Counted from the stretch's first letter, positions 2,377 to 55,091 are shown. The stretch: DNA of 64,000 nucleotides from Chiloscyllium plagiosum (GCF_004010195.1 NC_057752.1:16102793-16166792); one strand, 5' to 3'. The notes: generated by a model from the sequence alone, not told the origin. Program-made: numbers and translations.

Positions 2377-2545
2377 GAGAAAGTGAGGACTGCAGATGCT
2401 GGCGATCAGAGCTGAAAATGTGTTGTTGGAAAAGCGCAGCAGGTCAGGCAGCATCCAAGGAGCAGGAGAATCGACGTCTCGGGCATGAGCCCTTCTTCAA
2501 GATTCCTTATAATCTGCTGCGCTTTTCCAGCAACACATTTTCAGC
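2377..2545 (-). mobile_element. Short PLE-derived insert (family A) with partial inverted repeat
   Basis: 14-bp TSD tcttccagtttgct at 2363-2376 and 2546-2559; body gagaaagtgaggactgcagatgctgg...tcgacgtctcgggcatgagcccttcttc; inserted in a decayed minus-strand CR1. Confidence 0.85.
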
Positions 2546-3221
2546 TCTTCCAGTTTGCTCCCAAAGTTAATAACCTCAATTTATTTACATTAGTGAAGCA
2601 AGATTGCATCCTCTTTACCCCCACTAAAAGTTTTGTCACCTGTAAATGGAAGATTCTCCAGCTTCACCCTGCTAACTAGTTTCCTATCACCCCAATCCCA
2701 TGTGCTTTAGTTTTACACACCAATCTCATGTGGGACCGCGTCAAAAAAGGATTTGGAAAGTCTTAAGAAACTGCAGCCTTGAATTGCAGTAAGTTTGTCT
2801 GGTGTGATTTGCTTTTTTTTTTAAAAAAAAAACAATCCATACTGTCTCTTCAGGCCTGTAGTTTAGCAAATATGCTGTTAATTATATAACTAGATGATGG
2901 ATGGACAGACAGACAAAACAGGTCAGAGAGAGGAATATTTGTTTACTTTGGAAAAAGAATGGATGTCATGGAGGTTTTTAAAACATTGATTCTAGATAAA
3001 GTCCAAAAAGGAAAATATAAATAACTTCTGCCATCAGAAAGAAAGAGTCGAGCATAAAAGTAGTGATTGTTGATAGCAGGATAGGAGCCCTACAATTGAT
3101 TTTGCCCAGTCCAGGCAGGGGGTTGACTGGAGGGAGAGCAGCACCAGATGTAACAAGGAGGTGTCAACTTGAAGCTACACAGAAGTACATGTGTCCCAGA
3201 TGCCAAACAGAGGCGGATAAC

Positions 3222-3972
3222 ATGGCACTCAGTGGTTAGCCCTGCTGTCTCAGTGCATGGGACCCAGGTTTAATTCTAGCTTGGAGTGACTTGGTATGTG
3301 GACATGATTTGGAGGAGCCAGTGTTGGACTTTGGGGTGTATAAAGTTAAAAAATCACAACACTATAGTCCAACAGGTTTATTCAGAATCACTAGTTTAAG
3401 TGTTGCTTCTTCATCAGATAGTTGTGGAGCAGAATCTAAGACGTGCCTTCATATGATAAATCCCAGAAGTTACATGCTCGAGATAGTTTCTAACAACAGG
3501 TGCCCTCTCAGCTCAGATAATGCATTGAAGGTGCGAGGTTAAAATCTGTCTGTGCCCCAATGTTAGGTCAAATGGATTCTATTTCTAGAGTGGGGGTTAC
3601 AGAATCTGATTTCCATAAGGAACTGAAGCTAACATGGTCAATCTAAAATTAGTTTGTTTAATATGACATTCCATGACAGAATTCATAGCAACAGGATTGC
3701 AGTGTCTCATGATCCTGCTCCACAACCACCTGATGAAGAAGCAGTGCTTCAAAAGCTTGTTTCCAAATCACCTGGTGTTGTGTAATTTTTAAAACTTGGT
3801 GTGTGGAGTTTGCCCAGTATGTGGGGGTTCCCTCTGGGTGCTCTTGTTTCCTTACAGGAGTCAGAAGATGGTAGATTAGCCACGCTGGACTTGGGTAGGA
3901 TGCAGTGAGGGTCAGTAGTGACCCAATGGGCTGAATGGCCTCTTTCTGCCCTGTAGGGATTCTATGATTCTA
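3222..3972 (+). mobile_element. HE1-type V-SINE split by a PLE family B insert (3303-3793)
   Basis: tRNA-like head tggcactcagtggttagc; the V-domain resumes at 3794; near-perfect 14-bp TSD acttggt[a/g]tgtgga at 3289-3302 and 3794-3807. Confidence 0.8.
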
Positions 3973-4892
3973 CCAAAGATCAGATCTAATCTGCGCAGCC
4001 CGTTTCCATCGAGTCGAGTATGGTGGAGGACTGGTTAAGAAAAATCTACACAGTGAAACTCTACAAAGAGCTCACCCTCAATATGGATAGGAGCCCAGGA
4101 TAGCAATCAGTGCACGAGCAAGAATGAAGGCTACCTGTGCAGGTATTTGACCAGAAGGGCCACATGAATGATCCATACCAGCCACCTCTAAGAGCTCCCC
4201 AGCATCTCCGAAGCAAACGTTTGGCCAATTGAAGACCCTTCACACAATATCAAAAAAACCACAGCTCAAGCTGCTGGAATTGACATTTCAGAGGGCAACT
4301 GGGACTCTTGGGTAGAGAAGAGTTATGGTGCAGTGATAGTGCCCCCGCACAAGGCAGGAGGAACCAGACTGAGGTTCCACCTGCTCGAGTGAGGCCATAA
4401 CAGGTTCATTAAAATACCTAAAATTTAACCACAGGCCAGACCAGCCAAGGTCAGCAGATGGTGTCTTTTCTCAGGAAGATGACAACATTGCAAAATGCTC
4501 TGGTCACAATTATGACAAGGTCAGCTTTCAATTCCAGATTTATTTTAATTTAAATTCAAATCTGGTTCACTGGTAGGTCTTGGAAACCCATGTCCCTCGA
4601 TCACAGACTGAACCCCAGAATGGTCCAGTGACATTACCAAACAGTTGTCTGTGTCCCACAGCTAGCTGTTCTGCTACAGGCATGTCCTCTACACAAAAAT
4701 CAGGGCAAATTCAAGCCAGTCTATTACTGTCAAAGTCTATACTCAATCAGCAATGTTGTGGAAAGGCTCAGTGCTACCAGGAGGTGCTTGCTCACCAACA
4801 TTCAGTTTAGTTTCTTCCAGAGCCACTTAGCCCCTGAATCTGCCACAACCCTTGGCCCCAAGTCAGACAAGAGCTGAATTCCTGAAATGGGG

Positions 4893-5170
4893 TAACAGCC
4901 TTGTGATATTGTCACTGGGCAGAGACCCAAATTCAAATCCTGCCACAGCAGATAGCAAACATTTGAATTCAATGTAATATCTGAAATTAAAGATTCTGAT
5001 GATGTCCATTGTCAGGAAAACCTTATCTGGTTCACTAAGTGCCCTTAAGGAAGGAAGCTACCATCCTTACCTGGTTTGACCTACATGTGACTGCAGACCC
5101 ACAGCAACATGGTTGACTCAAAGTTAGGGATGAGCAATAAATGTTAGTCCACCACCAGCACCCTCACCCC
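4893..5170 (+). mobile_element. Second SINE-like family (related copies at ~39700-39800 and ~43145-43490)
   Basis: Shared core ctggttcact...ccttacctggt(c/t)tg(g/a)cctacatgtgactccagacc and a ggg/gag-caataaa tail in several dispersed copies. Confidence 0.65.
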
Positions 5171-5603
5171 ACAAATTCAACCTTTAAAAGGAAAGGATGA
5201 AAGTGACTGTCCCTTGACAAAGTTCTGGTAACATGGGAATCAGTGGCGTTGCACAGGGGAATTTCTCCACTGATTGGAGTCTTACCCATCGCCAAGCAGC
5301 AACGGTGGAATTTAGAGGACAGTCACCCCAACTCCAGGATTTCTCTGGAGGGTGAATTCCTCAATAGATATTCTCTAAAGTCAGCCTGTTCAGGACGGTC
5401 CACATTTCTGAATCAGGTAGAATGTGAAACCAGACCTTCTAGCCCAGAATAAGTACACTATCACTGTACCACAGGAAACCCCACTAAAAATATTTCAGGG
5501 CACACGAGACCTGACCACTTCTGAATGGAGCCTTCATATTAGGACCTAAACATTACAGCCCTCAATGTTGAGCCAGCCTGTGAAAATAATCTGATGCCCA
5601 TCT

Positions 5604-5880
5604 GGGCAGCACAGTGGTTAGCACTGCTGCCTCACAGCGCCAGAGACCTGGGTTCATTTCCCACCTCAGGCGACTGTGTGGAGTTTGCGCATTCTCCCCG
5701 TGTCTGCGTGGGTTTCCTCCCACAATCCAAAAATGTGCAGGTTAGGTGAATTGGCCATGCTAAATTGCCCATAGTGTTAGGTGAAGGGGTAAATGTAGGA
5801 GTATGGGTCTGGGTGGTATGCGGGTTGGTGTGGACTTGTTGGGCCGAAGGGCCTGTTTCCACACTGTAATGTAATCTAAC
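5604..5880 (+). mobile_element. HE1-type V-SINE
   Basis: A/B-box-like head (gtggttagcac; ggttcatttcc), V-domain ctgtgtggagtttgc...ttctccccgtgtctgcgtgggtttcctcc, LINE-like tail gggccgaagggcctgtttccacactgta followed by (taatc)n. Confidence 0.92.
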
Positions 5881-6600: not shown

Positions 6601-7434
6601 TAAAACTGATCTAAAATTATACCCAGTCATTATTTGAAAAGTGACAGCCCCCCATAAGAACTACTTGTGATCTAGACAAGTTTTGTCATGCTGAAACAGT
6701 GACAGTAAACAGCCTTTGTGAACCACTACAATCCACTCAAGCGGTGTTAAGGAAGGTGATCAAGATTTTTAAACTGGTAACAATTAAGAATCAATTAATT
6801 CAATGTCAAGGTGGCAAATGGCTTGGAGGGAAGCTTACAGCTGGTGGTGTTACCTGGTAACAGTTGCCCTCATCCATCTGGATTTAAAAAAAATAATGAA
6901 ATGGTGATTATAGGTCAGACAGGGTTCAGCAAAGTCTCATTGGTTTCTACAATGTATACTATCTACAAAGTTCATACAGTGAAGGGAGTGAGGGAAATAT
7001 TGAAAATGATGGATGGGGCACCAACCAAAAGAGCCGATCTCAGATGACGTCAAGCTTTGAGCATTGCTACAGACATCCAGAGTGTATTCCAGCACACCGA
7101 CTGCGAGGTAGCTAACAGCCCTTGGGAAGTCAGGAGATACTGGCTACAGAATTTCTAGCTTGCCCTTTTAGCCAAAAGCACTTGTTAATCCAGTTCAGTT
7201 TCTGGTTCATAGCAGCCTGCATATCAGGACCAGGGGTTTCTGCAATGCTAAGGAAACACTGGTAGATTCACTGGCTGGAGATGATTATTGAACATAATTG
7301 TCCCATGCTGAAGCTGTGCTTTGCCTGGTCAGTCAAGCATTTCCTTGTTAGAGGTTACAACAACATCTTAAATTCAACTGTGTGGTTGAACCAAGATAAT
7401 GAGGTCAAGAGCCAAACAGTCCTGATGGAACTCA

Positions 7435-7640
7435 AGAGAACTGCAGATGCTGTAAATCAAGTTGCTGATCAAGCTCAGCTGGTCTGGTAGCATCGTGAAG
7501 AGAAGTCAGTTAACTTTTTGGATCCAGCACCCCTTCCTCAGTTCTGATGAAGGGTCACTAGAGCCGAAACGTTAACACTGATGGTTGATTTCACTTCCCA
7601 GATGCAGCGAGACCTGCTGAGCTTTTCCAACAATTTCTAG
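7435..7640. mobile_element. Palindromic PLE-derived insert (family C)
   Basis: Imperfect inverted arms (gctcagctggtctggtagcatc / gatgcagcgagacctgctgagc) around a hammerhead core; related copy at 34215-34385. Confidence 0.7.
7541..7576 (+). ncRNA. Minimal type I hammerhead ribozyme motif (family C)
   Basis: gtt-CTGATGA-a-gggtc-acta-gagcc-GAAA-cgtt-aac: catalytic boxes present, imperfect stem II, palindromic ACGT in place of stem III, stem I gtt/aac. Confidence 0.6.
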
Positions 7641-8374: not shown

Positions 8375-8564
8375 CTGTTTGTGTTCTGTGAATTACTGCA
8401 CTGACTTTCAAGTCCCCCTTGGCAGATATGGTTATCCACTTCCATTCATTAGCAGAGTTTTGTTCACATTCAGCCGTAACAAAAGTATATTTTTTATTCC
8501 CCAGCCCTAATCCATTCTGCTGTAAAACTTGAAGATCACCCAGCAATGCTGTAACTTGTGCACA
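8375..8564 (-). CDS. Divergent profilin-like protein, middle exon (190 bp)
   Basis: atgtgtttcag|TGT GCA CAA...CAA ACA G|gtaagt; CAQVTALLGDLQVLQQNGLGLGNKKYTFVTAECEQNSANEWKWITISAKGDLKVSAVIHRTQT. NGL-x-LG-x-KK-Y matches the profilin core (PFN1 NGLTLGGQKC). Phase 0 to phase 1 and the length match the recalled PFN1/PFN2 exon 2. Confidence 0.72.
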
Positions 8565-8631
8565 CTGAAACACATTAAATAAAAAGAGAATTTAATTTAA
8601 CAAGAGGAATACTTAGTAAATAGCAGTTACC

Positions 8632-9540
8632 AGGACCGACTGAATAACTTGCAGATCATTTCAGAGAACATCTCTGGGATACCCGCACCAACCAACCCCA
8701 CCACCCTGTGGCCAAACACTTCAACTCCCCCTCTGTCAAGGGCATGCAGGTCTTGGGCCTCCTCTATTGCCACACTTTAACCACCTGGAGGAAGGACACC
8801 TCATATTCCACCTTGGGACCCTCCAACCACGTGGGATCAATTTGGATTTCAACAGTTTCCTCATTTCCCCTCCCCCCACATTATGCCAGTCCCAAGCCTC
8901 CAACCCAGCACCACCCTCTTGACCTAACCATTTTCCTTCCCACCCTATCATCTTTATCTACCTCCTCTTTCCTCTCTCCTCCTCCCTCCCCCCTGCCAAA
9001 ACATATCACATTCCCAGCTACATTCCCCAGCACAGAAACAGACCCACCACTCCAGTTCTTCCATGCTACCCAAATATCCCAATCTAATCCCATTTGCCAG
9101 TCCTTGGCCCATATCCCTCCAAACCCTTCCTATTCATATACCCATCCAAATGCCATATTCCACCTTGGGACCCTCCAACCACGTGGGATCAATTTGGATT
9201 TCAACAGTTTCCTCATTTCCCCTCCCCCCACATTATGCCAGTCCCAAGCCTCCAACCCAGCACCACCCTCTTGACCTAACCATTTTCCTTCCCACCCTAT
9301 CACCTTTACCTACCTCCTCTTTCCTCTCTCCTCCTCCCTCCCTCTCTGCCCCCCCCCCCGCCAAAACATATCACATTCCCAGCTACATTCCCCCAGCCCT
9401 ATCTTCCTCCCATTTATCTCAGCACCACCACCCCCCCCAACCCACAGCCTCATTCCTGATGAAGGGCTTATGCCTGAAACGTCAATTTTCCTGCTCCCCA
9501 GATGCTGCCTGACCTGCTGTGCTTTTCCAACACCACACTC
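8632..9540 (+). mobile_element. Penelope-like element 3' end (GIY-YIG C-terminus and pLTR) with internal duplication
   Basis: PVAKHFNSPS...HLIFHLGTLQPRGINLDFNSF, then a C/T-rich tail and ctgatgaagggcttatgcctgaaacgtc at ~9456-9483. Confidence 0.88.
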
Positions 9541-11761: not shown

Positions 11762-11878
11762 GAGAAAGTGAGGGCTGCAGATCAAAGCTGAAAATGTGTT
11801 GCTGTAAAAGCCCAGCAGGTCAGGCAGCATCCAAGGAACAGGAGAATTGACGTTTCGGGCATAAGCCCTTCATCAGGG
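11762..11878 (-). mobile_element. Short PLE-derived insert (family A)
   Basis: Perfect 15-bp TSD atagtcatagagatg at 11747-11761 and 11879-11893. Confidence 0.88.
11849..11876 (-). ncRNA. Minimal hammerhead ribozyme motif (family A)
   Basis: Minus strand CTGATGA-a-gggc-ttat-gccc-GAAA-cGTC: both catalytic boxes intact, perfect 4-bp stem II, GUC triplet; stem I weak. Confidence 0.65.
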
Positions 11879-11879
11879 A

Positions 11880-12820
11880 TAGTCATAGAGATGTACAGCA
11901 CAGAAACAGACCCACCACTCCAGTTCTTCCATGCTACCCAAATATCCCAATCTAATCCCATTTGCCAGTACTTGGCCCGTATCCCGCCAAACTCTTCCTA
12001 TTCATACACCCATCCAAATGCCTCTCAAATGTTGCAATTGTACCAGCCTCCACCACATCCTCTGGCAGCTCATTCCATACATGTACCACCCTCTGGGTGA
12101 AAATGTTGTCCCTTAGGTCTTTTAGATCTTTCCCCTTAACCCATGCCCTCTAGTTCTAGACTCCCCCACCCCAGGGGGAACATCTTACCTGTTTATCCCC
12201 TCATGATTTTTTGTTTAAAATATAAACCTCTACAAGATCCAAGATCGCCCCTCAGCCTCTGATGCTCCAGGGAAAACAGTCCCAGCCTGTTCAGCCTCTC
12301 CCTATCGCTGAAATCTTCCCACCCTGGCAACATCTTTGTAAATCTTTTCTGAGCCCTTTCAAGTTTCACAACATCCTCTGATCAGAAGGAGACCTGAACT
12401 GCACAGTGTTCCAAAAGTGGCCTAACCAATGTCCCGGTACACCTGCAACATGACCTCCCAACTCCTGTACTCCATACTGGACAATAAAGGAAAGCATACC
12501 AAACGTGCTCTATTCCTGAAGGGCTTTTGCCCGAAATGTCGATTTTCCTGCTCCTTGGATGCTGCCTGACCTGCTGTGCTTTTTCAACACCACACTAATC
12601 TAGACTCTGGTTTCCAGCATCTGCAGTCCTTGTTTTTAACCTAGCCTTCTTCACTATCCTATCTACCTGCGAGTCCACTTTCAAGGAGCTATGAACCTGC
12701 ACTCCAAGGTCGCTTTGTTCAGCAACACTCCCCAGGACCTTACCATTAAGCCCTGTTAAGATTTGCTTTCCCAAAATGCAGCACCTCACATTTACCTAAG
12801 TTAAACTCCATCTGCCATTT
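11880..12820 (-). mobile_element. CR1 LINE 3' end, with a family A PLE insert at ~12512-12640
   Basis: RT end (DLGVQVHSSLKVDSQVDRIVKK) plus a 3' UTR ending in ctctatgactat. Confidence 0.9.
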
Positions 12821-15000: not shown

Positions 15001-15514
15001 ACCACAAGATTAGCATGGTGCTGGAAACACGCAGCAGGTCAGGCAGCATCCAAGGTGCAGGAAGCCTGACCTCCAACCACATCTGTCTTTTGTGTGCCAG
15101 GTATGATAAAGTAGTTGACAGTTTACCCCTCCCCCACCCCAATATCTATGCATTCCAGGTTTGTGATCACAAGAGTCAAGAATGCTCCCAGTCAGTCAAT
15201 CCTCAAGATCAGCAAATCCTCTTTTTCAGAGAAACACAGAAAGCAGTCATGGAGACTACAGCAGAATCAGACCACTCAAACTCGTCCTTGCTGACCAAGT
15301 TTCCCAAAGCCTGCATTTAATACATATCCTAAAAACTTTTGCTATTCACATAGCTGCCCAAATGTCTTTTAACATTATCATTGTATCCTCATTCACCACT
15401 TTCTCCAGCAATTTATTTCACATGCATACCATCCTGTGGTGAGAATGTGGCCCCTCAGACGCTTTTTAAAAATCTCTTCTTCCTGATCTTAAAAAATGTT
15501 CCCTCTAGATTTCA

Positions 15515-16030
15515 TGGAATCCCAGTGTGGAAACAGGTCACTCAGCCCATGAAGTCCAGTGATCCTCTGAACAGCATCCCACCCAATCTCACTCTCTTAC
15601 CCTATGTTTGCAACCCAATATGTCCTATGGCTAATCCACCCAACCTATGATGGAGGAGGTGGGAGTGTTGGACTGGGATGGACAAGAGTTAAAAAACCAC
15701 AACACCAGGTTATAGTCCAACAGGTTTACCAGGTAGGAAAGGAACAGTGCTCCAAAAGCTAGTACTTTCAAATAAATCTGTCGGTGTTGTGATTTTTTAA
15801 AATTTTGTCCACCTAACTTAAGCATCCCCAGACACCATGGGCAATTTAGCATGACCAATCCACTCTAATCTGCACATCTATGAACTGTGGGAGGATACCC
15901 GAGCACCCGGAGGAAACCAATACACTCACAGGGAGAATGTCTGTGCAAACTCCATAGTCTTCAGAGGGTGGAAGTGAATCTGCATCCCTGGTGCTGAGAG
16001 GCGGCAGCAGCTGCTAACCACTATGCTACC
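15515..16030 (-). mobile_element. V-SINE with a nested palindromic family B insert (~15648-15807)
   Basis: Reverse V-domain; insert acaacaccaggttatagtccaacaggttta...ggaacagtgctccaaaagctagt...ggtgttgtgattttt flanked by tccacc[c/t]aac[c/t]ta. Confidence 0.75.
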
Positions 16031-17269
16031 CTTTGAACTCCCCAATCCTAGGGTGTAAGACTTTTCACATTTTCAGCTCTGATCTCCAGCATCTGCAGAC
16101 CTCACTTTCTCCAGCAGAAAGTGAACCAGCCTATCCTTCTAATTCAAACCCTCTATTCCTGGTAAATCTTTTCTGAACCCTCACCAATTTAGTAATATCC
16201 TTCCTATAGCAGGGCTACCAGAACTGCACAAGTTACTAAAAAAAAAAACAAAGAAATACAGCACAGAAACCACCGCTTTGGACCTTCAAACCTATGCCAA
16301 CCATCATGCCCTAACTAAACTGAAATCAAACAAACCTTCTGTCCTTATTTGGTCCCTATCCCTTTATTCCCTTCTAGTCACATAATCATACAGATGCCTC
16401 TTAAAATATCACCAACGTGCCTGCTTCCACCACCTCTCCTCTCACCGCCATGTTTCCAGTGAAAAAACAATCCTAGTCTTTAGAAGATTCTCAGATCCAG
16501 CGCCAAGACCAGGCAACACCCTGGTGAACCTTCTCTGCACTCTCTCCAAAGCTTCCACGTCCTTCTGGTAGTGTGCAATTTTGGTCACCACATTAATTGG
16601 TCTTTTATGGAGAACAGAAGGGGAAAGAGTAGTTAATCTGCCAACCCCCGTCCAACTCACCTTCGAAAAGGATAATTTAGCAAGACTATTTTGGATCGTA
16701 ACCAATTACTTGGTCAATAATTCTGAACATTAAATCTGTTCCTCTGCGTCTGAAGAAATTCAAAACACTAGTTTTAATCAAGATTGTACCACTTATCCCT
16801 CAAGCCACAGGAAACAAAGGTCACAGCTGCTGACCTGAGCACTGAAAAGCAAGTGACATCCCTCAAGGGTGAAACTGGCAATCCCCTGAAAGTACAGGAT
16901 TCGATTAGAGGGGGAAAAAAAATAATTCATAAGCAGCTGCGAAAAGTCAAGGCAGCTGCACCAGCCAAAAGCAAGCAGTTAGCTGGTAGCAGCAGCACAA
17001 AACACTGAACAAAGAGCCAACACTTCAAGAAAGAGAGAGAGTCTTAAGAGTTATATTGTAGAGCAATAGACTCAGTCCAACTAGTCCACACTGACTGGAT
17101 ATCCTGATTTGATCCAGTCCCATTGGCTAACATCTGTCTGAACCCTGTTCCAGCACATGCACCGCCCGCTGACTCAAAAAACAATCTGATTGTGCGTCAG
17201 TATTTGTGGATTGCTCATGAGGCTGTAATCAGACATGTGTTTTTTCAGCCTCCTGCCCATCTATGTCAG

Positions 17270-17895: not shown

Positions 17896-18654
17896 GTGCA
17901 AAACTGCCCACAAAAGGTCTGGTCAGGAACACCCACATCCATCAAACAAACTGAAGAGAAAAAAAAAGTTTAAAAAAGTTACATTAATTTCAAATCTTTA
18001 TACACTAATGTGGTGTTTAATAGTTCATATTTGAAAGGAAATTGAAATACCATGTATGAGCAGCCTGGAGCTGCATAAAAGAACCAGATGTGACCACATT
18101 TGAAATGATTAGACAGTATGGTAGCATTGTAAGTAGCTTCATAAAACTGAATAATTTGGTCGAAAGTTTTGACCAGGCTTTTTACACTAAATAACTGTCT
18201 ATGCTACAGCTGCCTTTCCATCGTGAAGACAAAGAGGCCTCCTTCGTCCCCAGCACACTCTCCGAGTCCCAGGAGACGGCTCAGGAATGAAACCGCATCA
18301 GAGTGACGCTTGCTCGCCTCCCAGCGCCAGCAGGCGGCCAGTCAGCCCTTCGGCCCCCCCACCCCGTGCTGGCCCTGCGGGGCAGCCGATTCGCCACGGG
18401 CAGGGAGAGAGTGAAAGGAAGTTTTAGCGGAGCCGGAGTGCGACCTGGGGCCGACACTTGAATCCCCCCGGGGGTGGGGAAAGGGAGATGGATTCACTCC
18501 CCTCCCCCACCCAACCACGGGCGGGGCACAGCCTCCACCCAGAGCCGGGCACTCAGAACCAGGAAGTACCTCGGGGGGAGGGAGGGAGAGAGAGAGAGAC
18601 ACAGAGACATACGGGGGGAGGGGCTGGAAAGGGAGCCAGGGGATGGAAAGGAGG

Positions 18655-19005
18655 CTGTTTGAAATTGGAGAACTCAGTGTTGAGTTCTCCGGGCTGTAGG
18701 CTACCCAGGTGGAAGATGAGATGTCGTTCCTCCAATTTGCGGTCTGATTCGCTGTGGCAATGGAGAAGGCTGAGGATGCTCATGTTGGAAAGAGAGTGGG
18801 AATAGGAATTAAAATGGGCGGTGACTGGGAGGGCCAGTCGGCCCCTGTGTACCCGACTGAGGTACTGGGCGAGACATGCCTTTCGTTTATGTTTGGTCTC
18901 CCCAATGTAGAGAAGACCACATTGGGAGCACCTGATACAGTAGACTAGGTTGGAGCAGGGGCAGGTGAACCTCTGTCTCACCTGGAAGGACTGTTTGGGG
19001 CCATC
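18655..19005 (-). mobile_element. Penelope-like element GIY-YIG endonuclease fragment
   Basis: FTCPCSNLVYCIRCSQCGLLYIGETK...PVTAHFNS...LEERHLIFHLGSLQPGELNTEFSNF: VY...YIG motif with intervening cysteines, typical of PLE endonucleases. Confidence 0.92.
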
Positions 19006-33630: not shown

Positions 33631-33900
33631 GGAAGTGAGGACTGCAGATGCTGGAGATTAGAGTCAAGAGTGTGATGCTGGAAAAGCACAGTAGGTCAAG
33701 CAGCATCCAAGGAGCAGGGGAATCGACGTTTCAGGCTTAAGCCCTTTTTCAGGAATGTCCTCGGTGGAGTGGGATAGTGATCCACCACAGGGTGGTGAGT
33801 TTAGTTGGTGCAGGTGTCCCAGAGATGTTCTCTGAAATGTTCCCTGAGTTGGCGTCTTGTTTCCCCGATATAGAGGAGACCACATCAGGAGATGAGGAGT
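33631..33900 (-). mobile_element. PLE family A pLTR plus a short PLE ORF remnant
   Basis: ggaagtgaggactgcagatgctggaga...tcgacgtttcaggcttaagccc, then a decayed YIGET-like region. Confidence 0.7.
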
Positions 33901-34594
33901 TCAGATGTGCAGGAAAATATAGGTGTGTGTGAGGGTGTGAGTATGTGTGTTTGTGTATGTGTGAGACAGTGTGTGAGTATGTATGCGAGTGTGTGCGTGT
34001 GTGTATGTGTGAGACAGTGTGTGTATGTGTGTCGGGACAGGGTAGGTGGGGAGCAGGTTGCCGCAGGGGGAGATGGGATTTGCAGTCTTAGCTTGGTTTC
34101 CCCTTTATTTTGTGCTGCAGCACCTCAGCACCATTTCGTGGACTGTGGGGCCACAAGGGACATTCTCTGTCATTCCATCTGTCTTTGATTATTTTTAAAC
34201 AAAAACATCCAAGGACTGTGGTTGTTGGAAATCAGAAGCAAAACCAGAAACTGCTGAAGAAACTCAGTAGGTCTGGCACGTCTGTGGAGAGAGTCCACGC
34301 CAGTCCCTGGACTTGGAACGTCCACTCTGCTTTTTCTCTCTACATATTGCCAGACCTGCTGAGTTTCTTCAGCAGTTTCTGTTTTTATTGGATTGTTTTT
34401 AGTTTGATGTCTCTCCCTGAAGGTTATGTCCCCTGAGAGGGTGCCTTCTTACAAGTTTCTCTAAGATTGCAAGGAGATGTCCTTACTGAAGGAAGGCAGC
34501 AAGACAGGGACAGCATGGTCTGAAAACTGAGCCAGCACCAGGGAGCCAGGCTGCAATTCATTTCTCCTGGAACATTTCACGCACCAACATTCGT

Positions 34595-36292: not shown

Positions 36293-37969
36293 TGTGGCAT
36301 GTGGAGAATCCTTGGCTGTCATACGGCCTCATACAGAGTCAGGGACCAGAGTGTCAGTATCTCTGGCACTCACCCTTTCTACCTGTCAGTCAGAGCTCCC
36401 TGATTGGCTCGGATTAACAGTCCCAATCAAGGAACTCAGACTGTATGATGTCCAGCTCGCTGACATGATTACAATCACTACAATGGAAATTTAAAAAATC
36501 AGACTTGCCAAAGTACTACATGGACTGGGCTGTTTGTCTGGACTAGGAGGGCAAGATTGGCATAGAGTAGGGCTGAGAGCAGGACAAAGGTAGTCAGGGA
36601 TTGCCAACAGCAGGAGTGTTCAGCTTTGTTAAAAAAAAAAGCTTCAAAAATATTTAATTTGATCTGTACAGGTCAGAGAGAAATGTGCTTACACACCGAG
36701 TGTTATGTAGCCTTTACTTGGAGAATACCCTATCCTGAGTATTTTGTGGCATTGTCATATAGATGGGTCAGATTGGGTAATCAACAAAAATGAAGCAAAG
36801 GTTATCCCTGCTGTAAAAACCTCCACTTTGCTCTCCTGCCTCTATTCTGCCTCATACTACTCCAGACACTCTGTAGGCTTCTATTTCAAAGTCAGGTGGT
36901 ATAGCTCTTTTTTGGAAGCTTGCTTTGGTCTGATTTGAAAATCGTTAGCTCTGTTTCTTTCTCCGCCAGACCTGCTGAGTTTCTCCAGAGCTCTCTAGAT
37001 TTTAGTTTTTTCACCTTATGCTCAGGACTGGACCCCAATTCCTTCTCTTCTGCCCCTTCTCCTGTTTCTTCCCTATCCCTTTTCCTCCTGCTCCCTCATC
37101 CCTGAATCTACTCCTGCCCCTTCACACGCTGCCCCTTTACTTGGGGTCCTGTAGTTAGGTCTCTGCCCTGTTCCTCCATCCCCCCCTATATCTTTTTTTC
37201 AGCTTCCTCACCACTGCCCATCACCCAGGACTCTAGAATCAGACCCTGAGCCACTCATCTGCTCAATAGGATCTTGTGTTCCTTCTCCTTGGTTCCTAAA
37301 TATAAAATGTAGGTTTTTAATTTGAGAAAGGTAGTACAGCAAAGAGCAGGAACGATGACAAGGTGGCAGGAACTCCTGTGTGAACAGGTGAGTTACAGAA
37401 TGGTAAGTGGCAGCAGGTACTGTGACACATAACAATTGCACCCAAGGTAAACATGGATTGCATAATCCACAACAACTCCTTTTTAATGACTTCAGAGTAA
37501 TAATGCACTCAGGTTGTTTGCAGAAGCATTATCAAACAGATTATAACACTGGGCAAAAGACACAGGAAGTCATACAGTACAGGGGAGGTCATTCGTACCG
37601 TCAAGTCCATAGTAACTCTCTGTAGAGTAATTCAGTCTGGCCCAATCCTCCTGCAATGTTATTTCTCTCTCATCCCATTTCATTCACCATCTGTCTCGCT
37701 GCCAATATTGTGGGCAGTGAGTTCTGGCTTGGGAGATATTCAGGATCGGTGACCAGATTAGAAACTTGGTCAAGATGTCACTTCTAAGGAGCGTCGTAAA
37801 GGAGGAGGACGAGAGGGTGGCAGAGGGATTTAGGGAGGGAATCCCAGAGCTTGGGGCTCAGACAGCTAATGGTGGAACGATGGGAATCAGGAGATGCTGA
37901 AGACACTCCATCCACCACATTAAACAGACACTGACCCACTCATAGAGACAGCAGCACTCACAAAAAACC

Positions 37970-38250: not shown

Positions 38251-40502
38251 GAAATTTTTGAAAAAAAAACACGCGGGTGTGGCTGTAAGTCAAATGTTTT
38301 TGCATTGACCTTCCTGTGTACAAACTGAACTGAGCAAACACGGCACTGAGTTCCCAAATCAACTGGACAGAATTTGCGAAAATGAAGGTTGGGGGTGGAG
38401 TGCAGACTGAGAAATGAAAACCTACAAATCTTGGAGCAGAAAAGGGTGCGGCCGCTGAAGCAGGGAAGGAAAGGCCCAGCCTAAGGAAAGGAATGCAAGA
38501 CTACAGCTCTCACATGTTGCTACAGAAACAGCGTGGTATTATTCATGATGAGCTGCAGGCAGCTCTCAGTAAAAGGGAACAGAGAGGTTGAGCAATGTTG
38601 GCTGCCCGTGCTTCACTCTCTGGGTAGAAACACCCGTTTAGTACAACAGGAAGAAACTTGGCTGTAAGAAAGCAAGTTGTTGTGGTCCAGTGCTATGCAT
38701 CAAAGCCTTGGAGCACAGGGTCACGGTATACATGCTGCAGTACGGGCTATGTTCAAAATATCATTGAAGGTTCCCCTCCAAGTGCCACATAATTCTCATG
38801 ATCACTGCCTCCTTCCTTATGAGGATGACGCGATGTTATCCTGCAGATTCACAAGTCCACAGGAAAGGCGAACTGAGCACAACAGAACCGGAAACAAGGA
38901 AGTTGCTAAATTTGTACTGAAGCTTAGTTAGAGAGCTGACTGTAACTCCCTGGAGAGGGTGCAGGGAAGATCGACAGGGATGCGTGTATGTAGAGATGAG
39001 TGAAGGATTGACAGACTTACCTGTTCTTTGTGGATATAGGAAAAAAGGCTGGCACTGGAAGGGTTAAGGTGATGAAAGATCTCAGCAAAGTGGATGCAGC
39101 AACAACACTTCCGCCTATCAGGGAGAGCAATCAGACTAAGATAGTTACTAAGGAAATTAACAGAGAATTCAGCCAAAATCTCTGGAGCCAAAAGTTGGTA
39201 AAAAAAATTGGAACGGTCAGCCACAGGGAGCAGCTGAAGAGAACAGTATCTAAGGGGAAGCCAATGAGGGAGAAGGGGTTTAGAGATTTATGAGAACAGA
39301 TTTCCATGTAGGAAGATGGGAGGAAACTTGAGTGAAGTATGAACAGCAGCATGGACTGGTTGGGCCAAATGGCCTGTTTGCCCTATAGTTTCTACATTCC
39401 TGGAGCCCCTTCGGCCCTCCAAGCCTGAGCCGATCCAAATCCGCTGTTATACCACAGAACCCTCTGTGCACAGCAGGTGTGCTGGCTATCACTCCTGTTC
39501 GGTGGGAGCCGAGGCATGAAACATCTCAAGAGTGATCCTGACAGTTCCATTGTTTTATTTAATGAAGTTAAAAATCATACAACATCAGATTATGGTTCAA
39601 CGGGTTTGTTTGAAAGTACAGCCAAGTCATTAAGATCAAGTTTCAAAACTGTCGTTCTTGTTTCCAGCCAAGGGTCAGGGGTGACAGATCACCGCCCAAC
39701 ATGGTCAATTGTTGGAAAAACCCATCCAGGTCACTAATGAAGGAAACCGTCATCCTCACCTGGTCTGGCCTACATGTGACTCCAGACCGACAGCAATGGG
39801 GTTCACGATGTGCAGTTGAAGCAGGAAACCCTACAACTTTTAAAAGGTACTTGATGGGCCAAATGGCCTCCTCTGGTGACTTTATGACAACACAGCCTTT
39901 AGGCAGGATCTTCCAGAAGGCAGCCTGAGACTGCTGGCCCAATCAGAAGGGGTCTTAGGTGTGCGGGATTAGGGAGTTGCTGTCACCTGAAAGAGGGGGG
40001 AACCATAAAGGCATCTTCGCCTTGAAGTGTCTGCTAAAAGATTTCAGTTGTTTTGAGTGGATTGTGGGCACAGTTCACAGGCAAATAGGCCAAAAGGACT
40101 CTGCCCTACTTCCCTAAGCCCTACTGACAGGGAGCAGGACTGCTCAAGCTAACTCCTTTCTCACCCAACAGAGGATCCAAGTGATAGTGCCCAAAATTGA
40201 TGAGGTCTGGATGGGAGGCCTCAGCACCTCCATACATTCCTGACAGGTTTGTATTTGGGAGGGAATCTGTCACCCCATACCAATCTGTGACCCTACCCTC
40301 CACCATCCTCCAGGTGTCAGTGTCAAACCCAGCCCAGAGAGGGAGGAACTGTCCACCTGGACAGGAGCTGGTTCACAATGTTACTCCCTGAGTGTAGTGG
40401 GGTTTCAGTGGCCAGTGGAGAAGATCTCCGGCCCCACTTTATCCCTTATTGCGACTGACCCCGAACTGCATCCTCCTCAATCATGCGTAGGTGATCTCTT
40501 TT

Positions 40503-43649: not shown

Positions 43650-44083
43650 GGGCAGCACGGTGGCTCAGTGGTTAGCACTGCTGCCTCACAGCATCAGGGA
43701 CCCGGGTTTGATTCCAGCCTCAGGCAACTGTCTGTGTGGAGTTTGCACGTTCTCCCCGTGTCTGCGTGGGTTTCCTCCGGGTGCTCCGGTTTCCTCCCAT
43801 AGTCCAAAGATGTGCAGGTCAGGTGAATTGGCCATGCTAAATTGCCCATAGTGTTAGGTGCACTAGTTAGAGGGAAATGGGTCTTGGTGGGTTACTCTTC
43901 GGAGAGGAGAAAGTGAGGTCTGCAGATGCTGGAGATCAGAGCTGAAAATGTGTTGCTGGAAAAGCGCAGCAGGTCAGGCAGCATCCAAGGAGCAGGAGAA
44001 TCGACGTTTCGGGCATAAGCCCTTCCTGAAGAAGGGTTGGGCTGAAGGGCCTGTTTCCACACTGTAGGGAATCTAATCTAATC
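43650..44083 (+). mobile_element. HE1-type V-SINE with a nested family A PLE insert (~43905-44036)
   Basis: Intact head and V-domain; tail interrupted by gagaaagtgaggtctgcagatgc...gcccttcctgaagaaggg. Confidence 0.92.
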
Positions 44084-44477
44084 TGCACTGGGCTCTATCA
44101 GGAACGCTGTTGGGTTCTCTCTCTGTCTCTACCCCTCTGGCTGTTCCCACATGGGAATGAGGAGATGGGTCAGGCTGCTGTCATCCTGCAGATTTCCTTT
44201 GCAAATTACAGCTCGTGTTGCCATGGAGATGGTAATGATCGAAGAGGAGCAGTAGGATAGAGGTAGCCCTGGGAGCCAGCTGTGTTCCAGCCTCTGATAA
44301 CCCAGGTCACCTCAGGGCTGGCTGTCAAAGTACTGCCACCCAGACCCCAGCCAACTGACTGGTCAGGGGTTTCACTCTCATCTGTCAGATGCTGAGGAAC
44401 ACGACCAATAGATGGGAGGCAGTCACATCACGCCCAGCTCTGTGCTGGATACTGAGCATTACTCTGTGTGACACAAC

Positions 44478-44511
44478 CACCTGACGAAGGAGCAGCGCTC
44501 CGAAAGTAGTG
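44478..44511 (+). ncRNA. Minimal hammerhead ribozyme motif (family B; element ~44470-44562)
   Basis: cac-CTGACGA-a-ggagc-agc-gctcc-GAAA-g(c)ta-gtg: perfect 5-bp stem II, stem I cac/gtg; lacks one base of the AGCT palindrome seen in the copies at ~3754 and ~15757. Confidence 0.55.
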
Positions 44512-44602
44512 CTTCCAAATAAACCTGTTGGACTGTAACCTGGTGTTGTGTGATTTTTAACACTGGTTAGTGGAGATCATGCTGTCAGTGGGAATGTCAG
44601 AG

Positions 44603-47600: not shown

Positions 47601-50600
47601 CAGTGTGTGCATATGACCCCATACCCCAGTGAGAGCAGTGTATTTATATTACCCCGAACCCCAGTGGGGGTCAGTGTGTGTATATGTCCCCGTACCCCAG
47701 TGGGGGTCAGTGTGTGTATATGACCCCCTACCCCAGTGAGAGTCAGTGTATATATATCACCCCGAACCCCGGTGGGGGTCAGTGTGTGTATATGTCCCCG
47801 TACCCCAGTGGGGGTCAGTGTGTGTATATGACCCCCTACCCCAGTGAGAGTCAGTGTATATATATCACCCCGAACCCCGGTGGGGGTCAGTGTGTGTATA
47901 TGTCCCCGTACCCCAGTGGGGGTCAGTGTGTGTATATGACCCAGTACCCCAGTGAGAGTCAGTGTGTGTATATGACCCCGTACCCCAGTGAGGGTCAGTG
48001 TGTGTATATGACCCCGTACCCCAGTCAGGGTCGGTGTATGTATATGACCCCATACCCCAGTGAGGGTCAGTGTGTGTATATGACCCCGTACACCAGTAAG
48101 GGTCAGTGTGTGTGAGAACCCGTACCCCAGTGAGGGTCAGTGTGTGTATATGACCCCGTACCCCAGTAAGGGTCAGTGTGTGTGAGAACCCGTACCCCAG
48201 TGAGGGTCAGTGTGTGNNNNNNNNNNNNNNNNNNNNNNNNNNNNNNNNNNNNNNNNNNNNNNNNNNNNNNNNNNNNNNNCAGTGAGTGCCAGTGTGTGTA
48301 TATGACTCCGTACCCAGTGAGGGTCAATTTGTGTATATGACCCCGTACCCCAGTGAGGGTCGGAGTGTGTATATGACCCCATACCCCAGTGAGGGTCAAT
48401 GTGTGTATATGACCCCGTACCCCAGTGAGGGACTGTGTATATATATGACCCCGTACCCCAGTGAGGGTCAGTGTGTGTATATGATCCCGTACCCCAGTGA
48501 GAGTCAGTGTGTGTATATGACCCCGTACCCCAGTGAGGGTCACTGTGTGCATATGACCCCGTATCCCAGTGAGGATCAGTGTGTATATATGACCCTAAAC
48601 CCCAGTGAGGGTCAGTGTATATATTTGACCCCGTATCCCAGTGGAGGTCAGTGTATATATATGACCCCGGAGCCCAGTGAGGGTCACTGTGTGTGTATAT
48701 GACCCCGTGCCCCAGTGAGGGTCAGTGTGTGTGTAAGACCCCGTACCCCAGTGAGGGTCAGTGTGTGTATATGACCCCATACCCCAGTGAGGGTCAGTGT
48801 GTGTATATGATCCCGTACCCCAGTGAGGGACAGTGTGTGTATATGACCCTGTACCCCAGTGAGGGTCAGTATATATATATGTTCCCCAGTGAGGGTCAGT
48901 GTATATATATGACCCCGTACCCCAGTGAGGGTCAGTGTGTGCATATGACCCCGTACCCCAGTGAGAGGCAGTGTATGTATATGACCCCGTACCCCAGTGA
49001 GGGTCAGTGTGTGTATATGACCCCGTACACCAGTCAGGGTCGGTGTGTGTATATGACCCCGTACCCCAGTAAGGGTCAGTGTGTGTATATGACCCCGTTC
49101 CTCAGTGAGGGTCAGTGTGTATATATGACCCCGTACCCAATTGAGGGTCAGTGTGTGTGTGAGACCCCATACCCCAGTGAGGGTTACTGTGTGTATATGA
49201 TCCCGTACCCCAGTGAGGGTCGGAGTGTGTATATGACCCCATACCCCAGTGAGGGTCAATGTGTGTTATATATATGACCGCGTACCCCAGTGAGGGTCAG
49301 TGTGTGTATATGACCCCGTACCCCAGTGAGGGTCAGTGTGTGTGTGAGACCCCGTACCCCAGTGAGGGTCAGTGTGTGTGTGAGACCCCGTACCCCAGTG
49401 AGGGTTACTGTGTGTATATGACCCCGTACCCCAGTGAGGGTTACTGTGTGTATATGACCCCGTACCCCAGTGAGGGTCGGAGTGTGTATATGACCCCATA
49501 CCCCAGTGAGGGACAGTGTATATATATGACCCCGTACCCAATTGAGGGTCAGTGTGTGTGTGAGACCCCGTACCCCAGTGAGGGTTACTGTGTGTATATG
49601 ACCCCGTACCCCTGTGAGGGTCGGAGTGTGTATATGACCCCATACCCCAGTGAGGTTCAGTGTGTGTATATGACCCCGTACCCCAGTGAGAGTCACTGTA
49701 TATATGACCCCGTACCTCAGTGAGTGCCAGTGTGTGTATATGACTCCGTACCGCAGTGAGAGTCACTGTATATATGACCCCGTACCCCAGTGAGGGTCAG
49801 TGTGTGTATATGACCCCGTTCCTCAGTGGGGGTCAGTGTGTGTATATGACCCCGTACCCCATTGGGGGTCAGTGTGTGTATATGACCCCGTACCCCATTG
49901 GGGGTCAGTGTGTGTGTATGACCCCGTACCCCAGTGGGGGTCAGTGTGTGTATATGACCCCGAACCCCAGTGGGGGTCAGTGTGTGTATATGACCCCGTA
50001 CCCCAGTGGTGGTCAGTGTGTGTATATGACCCTGTACCCCAGTGGGGGTCAGTGTGTGTATATGACCCTGTACCCCAGTGGGGGTCAGTGTGTGTATATG
50101 ACCCCGTACCCCAGTGGGGGTCAGTGTATATATATGACCCCGTACCCCAGTGAGGTCCAGTGCGTATATATGACCCCGTACCCAATTGAGGGTCAGTGTG
50201 TGTGTGAGACCCCATACCCCAGTGAGGGTTACTGTGTGTATATGACCCCGTACCCCAGTGAGGGTCGGAGTGTGTATATGACCCCATAGGATCATATACA
50301 GGACCCCTTCCTGAAGAAGGGCTAATGCCCGAAACGTCGATTCTCCTGTTCCCTAGATGCTGCCTGACCTGCTGCGCTTTTCCAGCAACACATTTCCATC
50401 ATATGACCCCATACCCCAGTGAGGGTCAATGTGTGTATATGACCCCGTACCCCAGTGAGGGACAGTGTATATATATGACCCCGTACCCCAGTGAGTGCCA
50501 GTGTGTGTATATGACTCCATACCCAGTGAGGGTCAATGTGTGTATATGACCCCGTACCCCAGTGAGAGTCATTGTATATATGACCCCGTACCTCAGTGAT

Positions 50601-51345: not shown

Positions 51346-51709
51346 CCCATTGGGGGGAGGGGGGGGGCGGTATTGAGGTGTGGCGTTTCTTTCCTCTGTC
51401 TTTGTTGAAGATCAGAACGATAATCCGCTGCTGCCCTCTCCCTGTGGTACAGAAATGTGCAATTCAATCGGATTGTGTATCTGGCCCCACCCCAGTAATA
51501 TAACAACAACTTAACTTTCGACATTTCTTGTCAATGCGTTCGGACATACCTCTAGAGCAGGTGGGTCTTGAACCCTGGCCTCATGGCTGTGAGGTAGGGA
51601 CACTACTCCTTTCTTTATATTACAGCTTAAAGGTGATGAATCGTTCCAAAGCCCTTCACTTGTGCATTGGACAGTAAACAGTAAACATTGGGCCATATTA
51701 AAACTTTCG

Positions 51710-51841
51710 AGGAGGAAGTGAGGACTGCAGGTGCTGGAGATCAGAGCTGATAATGTGTTGCTGGAAAAGAGCAGCAGGTCAGGCAGCATCCAAGGAGCAG
51801 GAGAATCGACATTTCGGGCATAAGACAGCAACACATTTTCA
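51710..51841 (-). mobile_element. Short PLE-derived insert (family A)
   Basis: Same body as 2377-2545; flanking duplication gccatattaaaact. Confidence 0.82.
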
Positions 51842-51869
51842 GCCATATTAAAACTGGTGAACTTTCGAG

Positions 51870-52454: not shown

Positions 52455-53560
52455 TAGGAGCAGGCCCCTCAGCCCATCAATCCTGCCCCCTCCCCCACCC
52501 CCAACTGGTCTGATCACCCCCACACTCACACTGACCCCTTGAGAACCTCTCACCCTCTCTCCCCACTGCATCTAAAATATTCCAAGGATCCTGCTCCCAC
52601 CATCTCTCAGGGAGAAAGTTCCAAAGAGTCCCAGCTGTCTGGGAGGTAAAGCTTTTCCCCATCCCTGTCCGAAATGGGGGGGGGGGGGCTTCTTTTTAAT
52701 CATTGACCCCTCGTTCTCAATTCTCCCACAGAGTGGGATCTTCCCCTACGTACCCGCCCGGTCAGGACCCCTCCAGATCTGGTATGGTCCCATCCATCAC
52801 CTCAAATTCTAAACTCCAGCAGAGCCCAGCCCAGAAGTTCCTACCTCTCCTCATGAGGCAATCTGTCCTGAGTGTTAACCTGAAAAACCTCCACTGAATT
52901 GTTTCCAATGCACTTACACCCTTCAATCCATAAGGAGACCAAGACTGTACACAGTGCTATAGATGTGATCTCACTGCTGCTCTGTATAACTGAAACATAA
53001 CCCCCTTACCCTTTACCTGATAAAGTGTAATATCCTACCAGGTAAAAACAATGACTGCAGATGCTGGAAACCAGATTCTGGATCAGTGGTGCTGGAAGAG
53101 CACAGCAATTCAGGCAGCATCCAAGGAGCTTCGAAATTGACGTTTTGGGCAAAAGCCCTTCATCAGGAATAATGAAGGGCTTTTTCCTGAAATGTCGATT
53201 TTGCCTGTCCTCGGATTTTGCCTGTCCTCGGATGCTGCCTGAACTGCTGTGCTCTTCCAGCACCACTAATCCTGTAATATCCTACCAGCCTTCCGAATTG
53301 CTGTGTACCAACCTCGTGTGCTTTATGCCAGAGCCCAGAGTACTGCAACCTCCCACTGTTCAGATCATCAGCTTCTGTTGCTTATTCTTTCTGCCAATGT
53401 TGATAATTTCACATTTTCTCATGTTGCACTCCACTTGGGAGATCTTTGCTCATTTATTGAACCTAATTATATTCCTTTGCAGCTCGTTATGATTGATTCA
53501 CAATTCAGGTTTCTACTCACTTGGTGTTATTAGCCACCCGTACCTCTGGCCCCTTCATCC
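52455..53560 (-). mobile_element. Old decayed CR1 3' region
   Basis: taaggagaccaagactgtacacagtgc and related RT-end remnants. Confidence 0.65.
53042..53272. mobile_element. Palindromic PLE-derived insert (family A variant)
   Basis: Perfect 16-bp TSD tgtaatatcctaccag at 53026-53041 and 53273-53288; inverted arms. Confidence 0.9.
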
Positions 53561-53667
53561 TAGCCGTTTGGGTGTTCAAATCCGGGACCCCAGAACATCA
53601 GCTGGGTCTCTGGATTAACAGTCCAGCGATAATATCACTAGGCCATCACCTTCCAGAGCAAAACCAC

Positions 53668-53698
<31 letters not shown>

Positions 53699-53716
53699 CA
53701 CGAGAGGTAACTGTAC

Positions 53717-53860
53717 CTGGATTGCAATGGGAATTAATTCATCCTGTGGATTCACGTACAAAAGACACATTGGTGCTTCAAGATATCGCTGATCTCCACA
53801 GATTGAATGGGCAGGAATTTCATCCAGCAGCTCATAATCAACAAGGAAAATATTTCCTTT
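53717..53860 (-). CDS. Lipoxygenase internal exon, 144 bp (next exon; ALOXE3/ALOX12B/ALOX15B-like group)
   Basis: cctgtttcag|AAA GGA AAT...GCA ATC CAG|gtacag; [48 protein letters not shown], with LOX motifs [10 protein letters not shown]-x-CLL and PIAIQ. Phase 0-0, splices in frame to the 57329 exon. The paralog assignment is from recalled exon lengths only. Confidence 0.96.
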
Positions 53861-54754
53861 CTGAAACAGGAATGTGACCAGTGAAAGTTTTGTCAAAAGC
53901 AGCAGGAATGTTTACCAAGAGAAGGACAGTTTATAGAGGGGAAGCATACAGAATCTCCCGAGACAAGTCAGCAAACCGACCCCCTCTCCCCAAAACTCCC
54001 ATTGAACAAATGGCACAACTCAAGCACTGGCATTGTGTGCATAGTTCATAAAAACTATGTCACACAGGTTGGAAATTACAAACCCATGAAACTAAAAGGG
54101 CAAAGCTCTCTCTTAAAGAAACAAGTGGAATCCCCAGTGTCAATATTACAGACAGCATGGATGTGACGTAAACCTCAATCTAACCCTGGTTGGGTCAGAG
54201 CGAGAGGATTTGATCCAACTCTTGTACTCCACACAGTCACAAGATGTCAAAGTCTGGGAGAGATGGTCATAGAGAGCAGGGAGGAGGGCTTTCAGTGAAC
54301 ATGGAGAGACTGAAAAATGGATTCTTATCATCAGAGGGAAAAAGGTGAAAACAAGGGGTAAGAGAACCAGACGAGGTGAGGGTGCTGAGAATGTTTGAAG
54401 GTATGGGCAGTGGAAGCAGTTTCAGTTGGAACTTTCGAAACGGGAAGTGGAGAAGCATATGAAGGGAGAATGCTTAGCAAGGCCACACGCTCAGAGCGGG
54501 AGGGAGATGGGAGTGTGTGTTTTCAAACGATACTGTGATGTTAATACGTCCTGAGCATCTTCCTACACATTACTGCACTTCCATTATTAACATCCCAATA
54601 AATACAGTCTGAGCATTATCCCCAAAATATCTTACAGTTCTAGTAATAGTTATTAATATTATGACAGCAAAGTGCAGAAAAGTGAGCCTGGAGTAGGTTT
54701 ATTGTAGCTTTGGCAATACAGATTTGATGGGCTGATGGGCTGATTTCTGGCTCT

Positions 54755-55091
54755 GAAAATGTGCTGCGGGAAAAGCGCAGCAGGTCAGGCAACATCCAAG
54801 GAACAGGAGAATCGACGTTTCGGGCATGAGCCCTTCTTCAGGAATGAGGGAAGTGTGCCAAGCAGGCTAAGATAAAAGGTAGGGAGGAGGGACTTGGGGG
54901 AGGGGCGTTGGGAATGCGATAGGTGGAAGGAGGTCAAGGTGAGGGTGATAGGCCGGAGTGGGGGTGAGGGCGGAGAGGTCAGGAAGAAGATTGCAGGTTA
55001 GGAAGGTGGTGCTGAGTTCGAGGGTTGGGATTCTCCTGCTCCTTGGATGCTGCCTGACCTGCTGTGCTTTTCCAGCAACACATTTTCAGCT
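54755..55091 (-). mobile_element. 5'-truncated PLE 3' end with inverted partial pLTR
   Basis: Perfect 15-bp TSD ctgatttctggctct at 54740-54754 and 55092-55106; internal part homologous to the PLE tail at 9240-9450. Confidence 0.9.
54814..54841 (-). ncRNA. Minimal hammerhead ribozyme motif (family A)
   Basis: Minus strand tc-CTGAAGA-a-gggc-tcat-gccc-GAAA-cGTC-ga; in the sense orientation of the LOX intron. Confidence 0.65.

What the first reader, a model, noticed from the sequence alone, without database searches (positions are those of the whole stretch)
2377..55091. Three families of short Penelope-derived inserts share a minimal hammerhead ribozyme with covarying stems
Seen: about 20 short non-coding inserts or fragments in three families that are only partly alike in sequence. 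The best copies keep CTGANGA...GAAA and a palindromic tetramer while the stems change together. Family A is tc-CTGAWGA-a-GGGC/GCCC-GAAACGTC-ga (11849-11876, 26239-26269 and 54814-54841, minus strand). Family B is cac-CTGAYGA-a-GGAGC/GCTCC-GAAAG(C)TA-gtg (44478-44511); the copy at 3730-3758 has the compensatory pair GAAGC/GCTTC. Family C is gtt-CTGATGA-a-GGGTC/GAGCC-GAAACGTT-aac (7541-7576). Family A is physically joined to a GIY-YIG ORF end at 8632-9540. Established: PLE pseudo-LTRs carry minimal type I hammerheads that lack a full stem III and can cleave as dimers through a palindrome. Inference: this genome hosts several parallel non-autonomous, ribozyme-bearing PLE derivatives at very high density.
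Basis: partly seen in the sequence, partly recalled or inferred. Interest (0 to 1): 0.75.

Follow-up and report, generated by a model that had tools for sequence, protein, structure and literature searches.

The report
Shark Penelope ends with minimal hammerheads
The short inserts are real and carry the small hammerhead-ribozyme motif already known from Penelope-like jumping genes; most are likely dead-end copies of the end piece of ordinary full-length elements rather than separate mobile families, and they often stop 3-4 bases before the motif, which may mark where the copied RNA begins.

Summary
The window, likely from a shark or ray, holds 28 arms in 20 insertions, and 6 fit a minimal type I hammerhead descriptor against 0.005 expected. 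Stems differ in compensated fashion between families but not within family A (0 of 8 pairs).

Corrections: only 3 of 17 A arms, one C arm and no B arm keep core and stems; C is related to A; a fourth family exists. Family A joins GIY-YIG remnants whose relatives are Neptune-type RT+endonuclease proteins. Inserts show known Penelope-like anatomy: 12-16 bp target duplications, head-to-head pairs, a ~33-nt tail on one arm. Long and short copies share one module, so 'non-autonomous families' is not supported.

One feature I did not find in print: 8 of 13 A insertions end just before the core, and public contigs pile junctions at -3/-4. This fits run-off at the RNA's 5' end (inferred). This scan already noted all of it on other pieces of the genome. 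New member of a known kind.

The parts
2377..2549 (-). Family A head-to-head insertion: main arm 2377-2503 (-, with tail, core damaged at C3 and A14), partner 2512-2549 (+); target duplication about 14 bp
3310..3800 (.). Family B pair: 3310-3436 (-) and 3711-3800 (+) around a 274-bp spacer of unknown origin; 14-bp duplication with one mismatch; sits in a SINE remnant; neither core complete
7432..7633 (.). Family C head-to-head pair; right arm (+, C3 at 7544) fits the descriptor with one stem II mismatch; left arm (-) decayed
8632..9540 (+). Long family A copy: GIY-YIG C-terminal remnant (8642-8874, last 24 codons repeated at 9155-9226), C-rich 3' UTR, hammerhead (C3 at 9456, helix I broken), end module without tail
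11763..11880 (-). Short family A insert with tail, 15-bp target duplication, 5' end at -1 to -4 from the core; helix I broken
12512..12640 (+). Short family A insert (another 3'-end subfamily), 5' end about -4, 3 bases missing in the core, no duplication found
15004..15065 (-). Family A fragment starting about 5 nt after the predicted cut; 12-bp target duplication
15652..15805 (.). Family B head-to-head pair, cores incomplete
16066..16113 (+). Last 47 nt of family A (tail only)
18640..19002 (-). Orphan GIY-YIG endonuclease remnant of a related element; no end module seen behind it
26143..26358 (.). Family A palindrome: main arm (-, intact hammerhead, C3 at 26268, 5' end at -3, tail) and partner (+, starts inside the core, no tail); 14-bp duplication with one mismatch
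33631..34028 (-). Family A module 33631-33757 (G8 lost, 5' end at -5) directly behind a GIY-YIG N-terminal remnant at 33762-34028; the sequence normally between them is missing
34200..34390 (.). Fourth, C-like family: head-to-head pair, hammerhead 5' half missing
36937..36989 (+). Fourth-family fragment
39567..39619 (-). Family B fragment without hammerhead
43913..44036 (.). Family A insertion in a SINE: main arm (-) starts at G8; a short partner (+) holds the core's 5' half from -3
44472..44566 (+). Best family B arm (C3 at 44481); one base of the palindromic tetramer missing
50305..50399 (+). Family A insert inside a 36-bp tandem array; intact hammerhead (C3 at 50311), 5' end at -3 behind a very short inverted arm
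51705..51843 (.). Family A main arm (-, starts in stem II, with tail) and a short partner (+); 14-bp target duplication
53045..53271 (.). Family A head-to-head pair, main arm (-) with G12 lost and 5' end about -4 to -6; 16-bp target duplication
54753..55095 (.). Family A: 276-bp arm (-) with 3' UTR and intact hammerhead (C3 at 54841; predicted cut between 54814 and 54813); partner (+) starts at the predicted cut (55029); 15-bp target duplication

Best explanation
These inserts carry the hammerhead-bearing end module of Penelope-like retrotransposons (shown for family A by its join to GIY-YIG remnants, inferred for the others) and are likely dead-end integration products of full-length Neptune-type elements, copied from an internal start near the tail until the enzyme likely ran off the RNA's 5' end 3-4 bases before the ribozyme core. 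Steps: (1) The element's RT-endonuclease cuts both target strands, leaving 12-16 bp duplications (duplications shown; cutting of both strands taken from the anole enzyme, PMC11167929). (2) It starts copying at one of two sites about 33 nt apart, so one arm has the tail and the other lacks it (two 3' ends shown here; cause inferred from that paper). (3) Copying of the first module of the transcript would stop after about 130 nt at a start site in TCATTCC, which fits the initiator pattern (boundary shown, start site inferred); copying from a downstream module would give the longer, variably cut copies. (4) Two such cDNAs, or one that folds back, join through 1-4 nt of complementarity in the core (TTC/GAA) and give head-to-head pairs (junctions shown, route inferred). 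(5) After insertion the copies decay. Selection on the ribozyme would have acted in the source elements, which explains covariation between families and none within.
For: A module joined to GIY-YIG remnants at 8632-9540 and 33631-34028. Relatives are RT + C-terminal GIY-YIG proteins (5 long ones scanned, all with RVT_1 and GIY-YIG hits, several below Pfam's cut-off); 34 of 37 long relatives with a C-terminal YxGxT carry the CX2-5CxxC linker that marks Neptune/Nematis (PMC8557442 passages). Target duplications scoring >=12 in 9 of 17 insertions tested, one of them inside a tandem array and uninformative. 3' ends fall in two groups: +115 to +126 (9 of 17 arms) and +80 to +99 (8 of 17 arms). 5' ends at -1 to -9 in 8 of 13 A insertions (P 7e-6 to 6e-12 after allowing for the window, depending on the span assumed; a post hoc test; one read by eye). 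In DNA run X4, listed loose ends behind -4 and -3 number 217 and 171 contigs with unlike flanks (agreement 0.32, 0.31); RNA run X21 lists 159 reads at -4; strand-switch joints at -2/-4 into the core occur in X4, X6 and X21. Depth over the UTR is about a quarter to a third of that over the module in X4, so long copies are common. CpG cells changed 19 of 111. The anole element uses uncleaved RNA as template, which fits copies that keep the whole ribozyme.
Against: No start site was observed: run X21 lists no place where many molecules begin or end, and X22 had 0 reads laid; these poly(A) single-cell reads are poorly suited to show one. 677 loose-end rows were not shown, and X6 lists none at -3/-4 (its counts were incomplete). 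Subfamilies differ just upstream of -4, which can add loose ends there and lowers UTR depth; the X6 depth step is unclear. The initiator pattern is weak evidence in pyrimidine-rich sequence. In Drosophila Penelope the start lies 46 bp before an intron that ends at helix I, not at the ribozyme. B arms begin at about -19 (two arms), -12 and inside the core, and B was not linked to any ORF. No full-length element was seen: no genome is held and collection scans were empty. Non-CpG core positions are somewhat better kept than downstream ones (3/112 vs 62/854, P=0.07), though subfamily mixing inflates the second figure.
Confidence: 0.6

Rival explanations
1. Same source elements, but the 5' boundary is made by structure, not by the RNA's end: the enzyme stalls or releases after the hammerhead fold, or the cDNA snaps back at TTC/GAA and self-primes.
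For: Three window insertions share the same -3/core junction with TTC/GAA overlap (26268, 44025, 50305). Strand-switch joints at this place occur in three runs. The first 13 nt can fold as a small hairpin. Palindromes at inverted junctions were read as self-priming in rotifer elements (PMC3846280 passage).
Against: Many junctions at -3/-4 run into long unlike flanks with no inverted arm seen (X4 loose ends; 11880 and 12512 in the window). A stall would be expected on the 3' side of a hairpin rather than after it (general knowledge). The ribozyme region folds no better than shuffles (z -0.04).
Confidence: 0.22
2. One reading: the short inserts are autonomous-independent families (SINE-like or retrozyme-like), each transcribed from short master copies and moved in trans.
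For: Near-fixed length of about 130 nt and a defined 5' end. If the promoter is internal, short copies could be transcribed. Putative non-autonomous PLEs exist in Chlamydomonas (PMC8557442), pLTRs suffice for mobilisation in trans (PMC3846280), and retrozymes are proposed PLE derivatives (bioRxiv 10.64898/2026.07.22.740005).
Against: The long arm at 54753-55028 matches the short reference arm at 86 of 92 positions, like the short copies. Centres and ends differ between insertions. No direct tandem array of the module is among 28 tandem-repeat rows. The anole protein needs RNA downstream of the start sites (first 172 nt of the ORF, starts at 111-118), which short inserts would lack. Reads in X21 come from both strands and 95% run on into unlike sequence.
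Confidence: 0.13
3. The copies are kept because they serve the host as ribozymes or as hairpin (double-stranded RNA) sources in host transcripts.
For: Intact-looking motifs exist (3 A arms, 1 C arm). Head-to-head pairs would give very stable hairpins. Copies are present in poly(A) RNA reads (1,921 laid of 12,955,460 records).
Against: Most arms have lost core bases or helix pairs, with CpG decay. The dimer fold is 11-12 kcal/mol above the best co-fold for A and C. Minimal monomers showed no cleavage in vitro (PMC4209133), and the anole ribozyme cut only with its protein.
Confidence: 0.04

Closest known systems
Minimal hammerheads (min-HHR) of metazoan Penelope-like elements (Cervera and de la Pena 2014, PMC4209133; parts 1-2 of 4 read)
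   Same: Type I core, one unpaired base before stem II, G10.1-C11.1 pair, palindromic 15.2-16.2 positions with no loop 3, several consensus families per genome with covariation, mostly single motifs from truncated elements, and dual motifs 100-700 bp apart on opposite strands.
   Different: Stem II is 4-5 bp and helix I 2-3 bp here (7-8 and 4-5 bp in the Schistosoma families). Density is about 1 descriptor hit per 10 kb in this window, against about 4,000 and 9,000 per genome in coelacanth and Xenopus. Sharks are not named in the parts read.
Insertion anatomy of endonuclease-bearing PLEs: pLTR, inverted 5'-truncated partner, 30-40 bp tail, target duplication (PMC8557442 and PMC3846280, passages)
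   Same: Head-to-head pairs, tail on one arm only, palindromic junctions, microhomology at joins, duplications at some insertions and none at others.
   Different: Most insertions here consist of the end module alone (under 280 bp), with a sharp 5' boundary at the ribozyme's edge; I did not find that boundary described.
Poseidon element of the green anole, PAc (Frangieh et al. 2024, PMC11167929; parts 1-2 of 4 read)
   Same: Two internal start sites that define the tail, both target strands cut and extended, ribozyme near the start of the module, uncleaved RNA used as template.
   Different: PAc is Poseidon clade with the ORF starting in stem II. Relatives of family A have the Neptune-type linker, and no ORF start was identified in the module here.
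Non-LTR retrozymes (bioRxiv 10.64898/2026.07.22.740005; parts 1-3 of 5 read)
   Same: Short non-coding, hammerhead-bearing sequences related to PLE pLTRs; reported in one cartilaginous fish.
   Different: Retrozymes are defined by head-to-tail tandem units with a ribozyme in each; none was seen in this window.

Membership tests
Minimal type I hammerhead (PLE min-HHR) | CUGANGA ... GAAA core with NUH cut site | tested here: met
   6 descriptor hits vs 0.005 expected: 5 A arms and 1 C arm; no B arm complete
Minimal type I hammerhead (PLE min-HHR) | Extra base at 9.1, G10.1-C11.1 pair, palindromic 15.1-16.1 tetramer without loop 3 | tested here: met
   A, B and C best arms; invariant in 8 A arms
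Minimal type I hammerhead (PLE min-HHR) | Helix I closing the core | tested here: inconclusive
   2 bp in A (broken in 3 of 8 arms), 3 bp in C; no longer helix found
Minimal type I hammerhead (PLE min-HHR) | Self-cleavage as dimer or with protein | not testable with these tools
   Dimer fold is possible but 11-12 kcal/mol above the best co-fold; no read-end signal in X21
EN+ Penelope-like element, Neptune clade (family A) | ORF with RT and C-terminal GIY-YIG endonuclease upstream of the end module | tested here: met
   GIY-YIG remnants joined to the module; RT seen only in relatives, not in the window
EN+ Penelope-like element, Neptune clade (family A) | CX2-5CxxC linker before GIY-YIG (Neptune/Nematis) | tested here: inconclusive
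   Present in 34 of 37 long relatives; the window remnants are cut or decayed at this point; no tree against named Neptune and Nematis proteins was built
EN+ Penelope-like element, Neptune clade (family A) | pLTR with optional 30-40 bp tail, inverted 5' partner, target duplication | tested here: met
   Two 3'-end groups about 33 nt apart; duplications in 8 informative of 17 tested
EN+ Penelope-like element (family B) | Physical link to a PLE ORF | tested here: inconclusive
   No profile hit near any B arm; spacer 3437-3710 has no recognisable ORF; inverted pair, tail-like extension and duplication are present
Non-LTR retrozyme | Head-to-tail tandem units each with a hammerhead | tested here: not met
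   None in the window; some joints could be short tandems but their orientation is not given
Non-autonomous PLE / SINE-like family | Own master sequence distinct from autonomous copies and own transcript | tested here: inconclusive
   Short and long copies alike in the window; genome-wide tree not possible

The most novel reading that the evidence does not exclude
The hammerhead forms the first 37 nt of the capped Penelope-like mRNA, and the very many ~130-bp inserts are integrated 'strong-stop' cDNAs. Full-length copying would then need a retrovirus-like jump from the RNA's 5' end to the downstream module, and the ribozyme would act as a decapping or template-inactivating switch. The shark genome would be a huge natural record of this unsolved replication cycle.
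Probability: 0.3. Interest if true: 0.65.

Novelty: new member of a known kind. Interest (0 to 1): 0.3.

Why it matters
The ribozyme motif, its family-wise covariation and the inverted, tailed inserts are all described for Penelope-like elements, so the finding as written adds a lineage and a high density, not a mechanism. What could matter is the sharp 5' boundary at the ribozyme's edge. How these elements complete a copy and what their hammerhead does are open questions (PMC8557442, PMC11167929), and a fixed boundary gives a direct test by cap mapping and by in vitro run-off. For annotation, these inserts should be labelled as Penelope ends, not as SINEs, microRNA hairpins or working ribozymes.

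Tried and rejected
No whole genome is held, so no genome-wide counts or trees were made. Pattern scans of metagenome, viral and prokaryote genome collections found 0 loci, as expected for vertebrate repeats. Rfam gave no hammerhead hit; its weak microRNA matches at 26222-26313 and 53136-53201 are the head-to-head palindromes and were rejected. Pfam did not recognise the two window GIY-YIG remnants on their own; they were identified through relatives. No RNA holder was on record in the run search; X22 had no reads laid and is no test.

A splice acceptor as the cause of the boundary was rejected because no AG precedes -4 in the copies read. Ribozyme cleavage as the cause was rejected because the cut lies 32 nt downstream; only 2 of 17 arms start at or just after it (+29, +34). 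A cap-copied extra G is only hinted at: 5 of 9 listed joints at -2 to -4 begin with C on the cDNA strand, while none of the window copies shows it; not used as support.

Lunse et al. 2017 on dimer cleavage is recalled only and is not held. The supplement search of PMC11167929 found nothing, and its Fig. S2 (coverage of genomic copies) could not be seen and may bear on the boundary claim. Supplements of the 2026 preprint were not read and may list shark families. A look at a possible host exon near 8375-8565 failed on a frame error and was dropped.


Full report
Setting. The window is repeat-rich vertebrate DNA with 2,600 N. It holds LINE remnants (RVT_1 and endonuclease hits), SINE copies and tandem arrays. 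The named relatives of a window GIY-YIG remnant are ray proteins at 57-58% identity, so the source is likely a shark or ray (inferred). The SINE resembles the elasmobranch HE1 family (name recalled, not tested). No genome is held.

Noticed in passing
window 3437-3710: 274 bp between two outward-pointing B arms, inside one target duplication; single copy in the window and no ORF seen. It may be B's UTR or captured host DNA.
   Followed up: partly
table 5c, window 54844-54845 to 54811: 5 of 12 listed rows join -3/-4 to a point 2-3 nt past the predicted cut with 1-3 extra letters. Orientation is not given; if same-strand these would be ~35-nt tandem hammerhead dimers elsewhere in the genome.
   Followed up: no
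   Followed up: partly
window 8802-9393: About 230 bp of ORF end and UTR are duplicated around what looks like a ~130-bp LINE fragment inside the long A copy.
   Followed up: partly
window 33757-33762: The module is joined at -5 to the middle of a GIY-YIG remnant through about 25 unrelated bases; the break again falls at the ribozyme's edge.
   Followed up: partly
window 44690-51356, 40641-41731, 35706-36159, 55547-56003, 32995-33629: Tandem arrays of 36 bp (173 copies), 23 bp, 53 bp (two places, SINE-like sequence) and 71 bp; an A insert sits inside the 36-bp array.
   Followed up: no
window 29756-31848 and 61124-62975: Long LINE remnants including an SGNH/GDSL-like ORF1 piece (62423-62989) and an endonuclease piece (61201-61998).
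   Followed up: partly
window about 8375-8565 (-) and 18340-18520: A possible host exon with splice-like ends, and a GC-rich stretch that may be a promoter; neither identified.
   Followed up: no
table 7, before 54753-54765: RNA reads show at least four different tail sequences behind the shared module, so family A comprises several subfamilies.
   Followed up: partly
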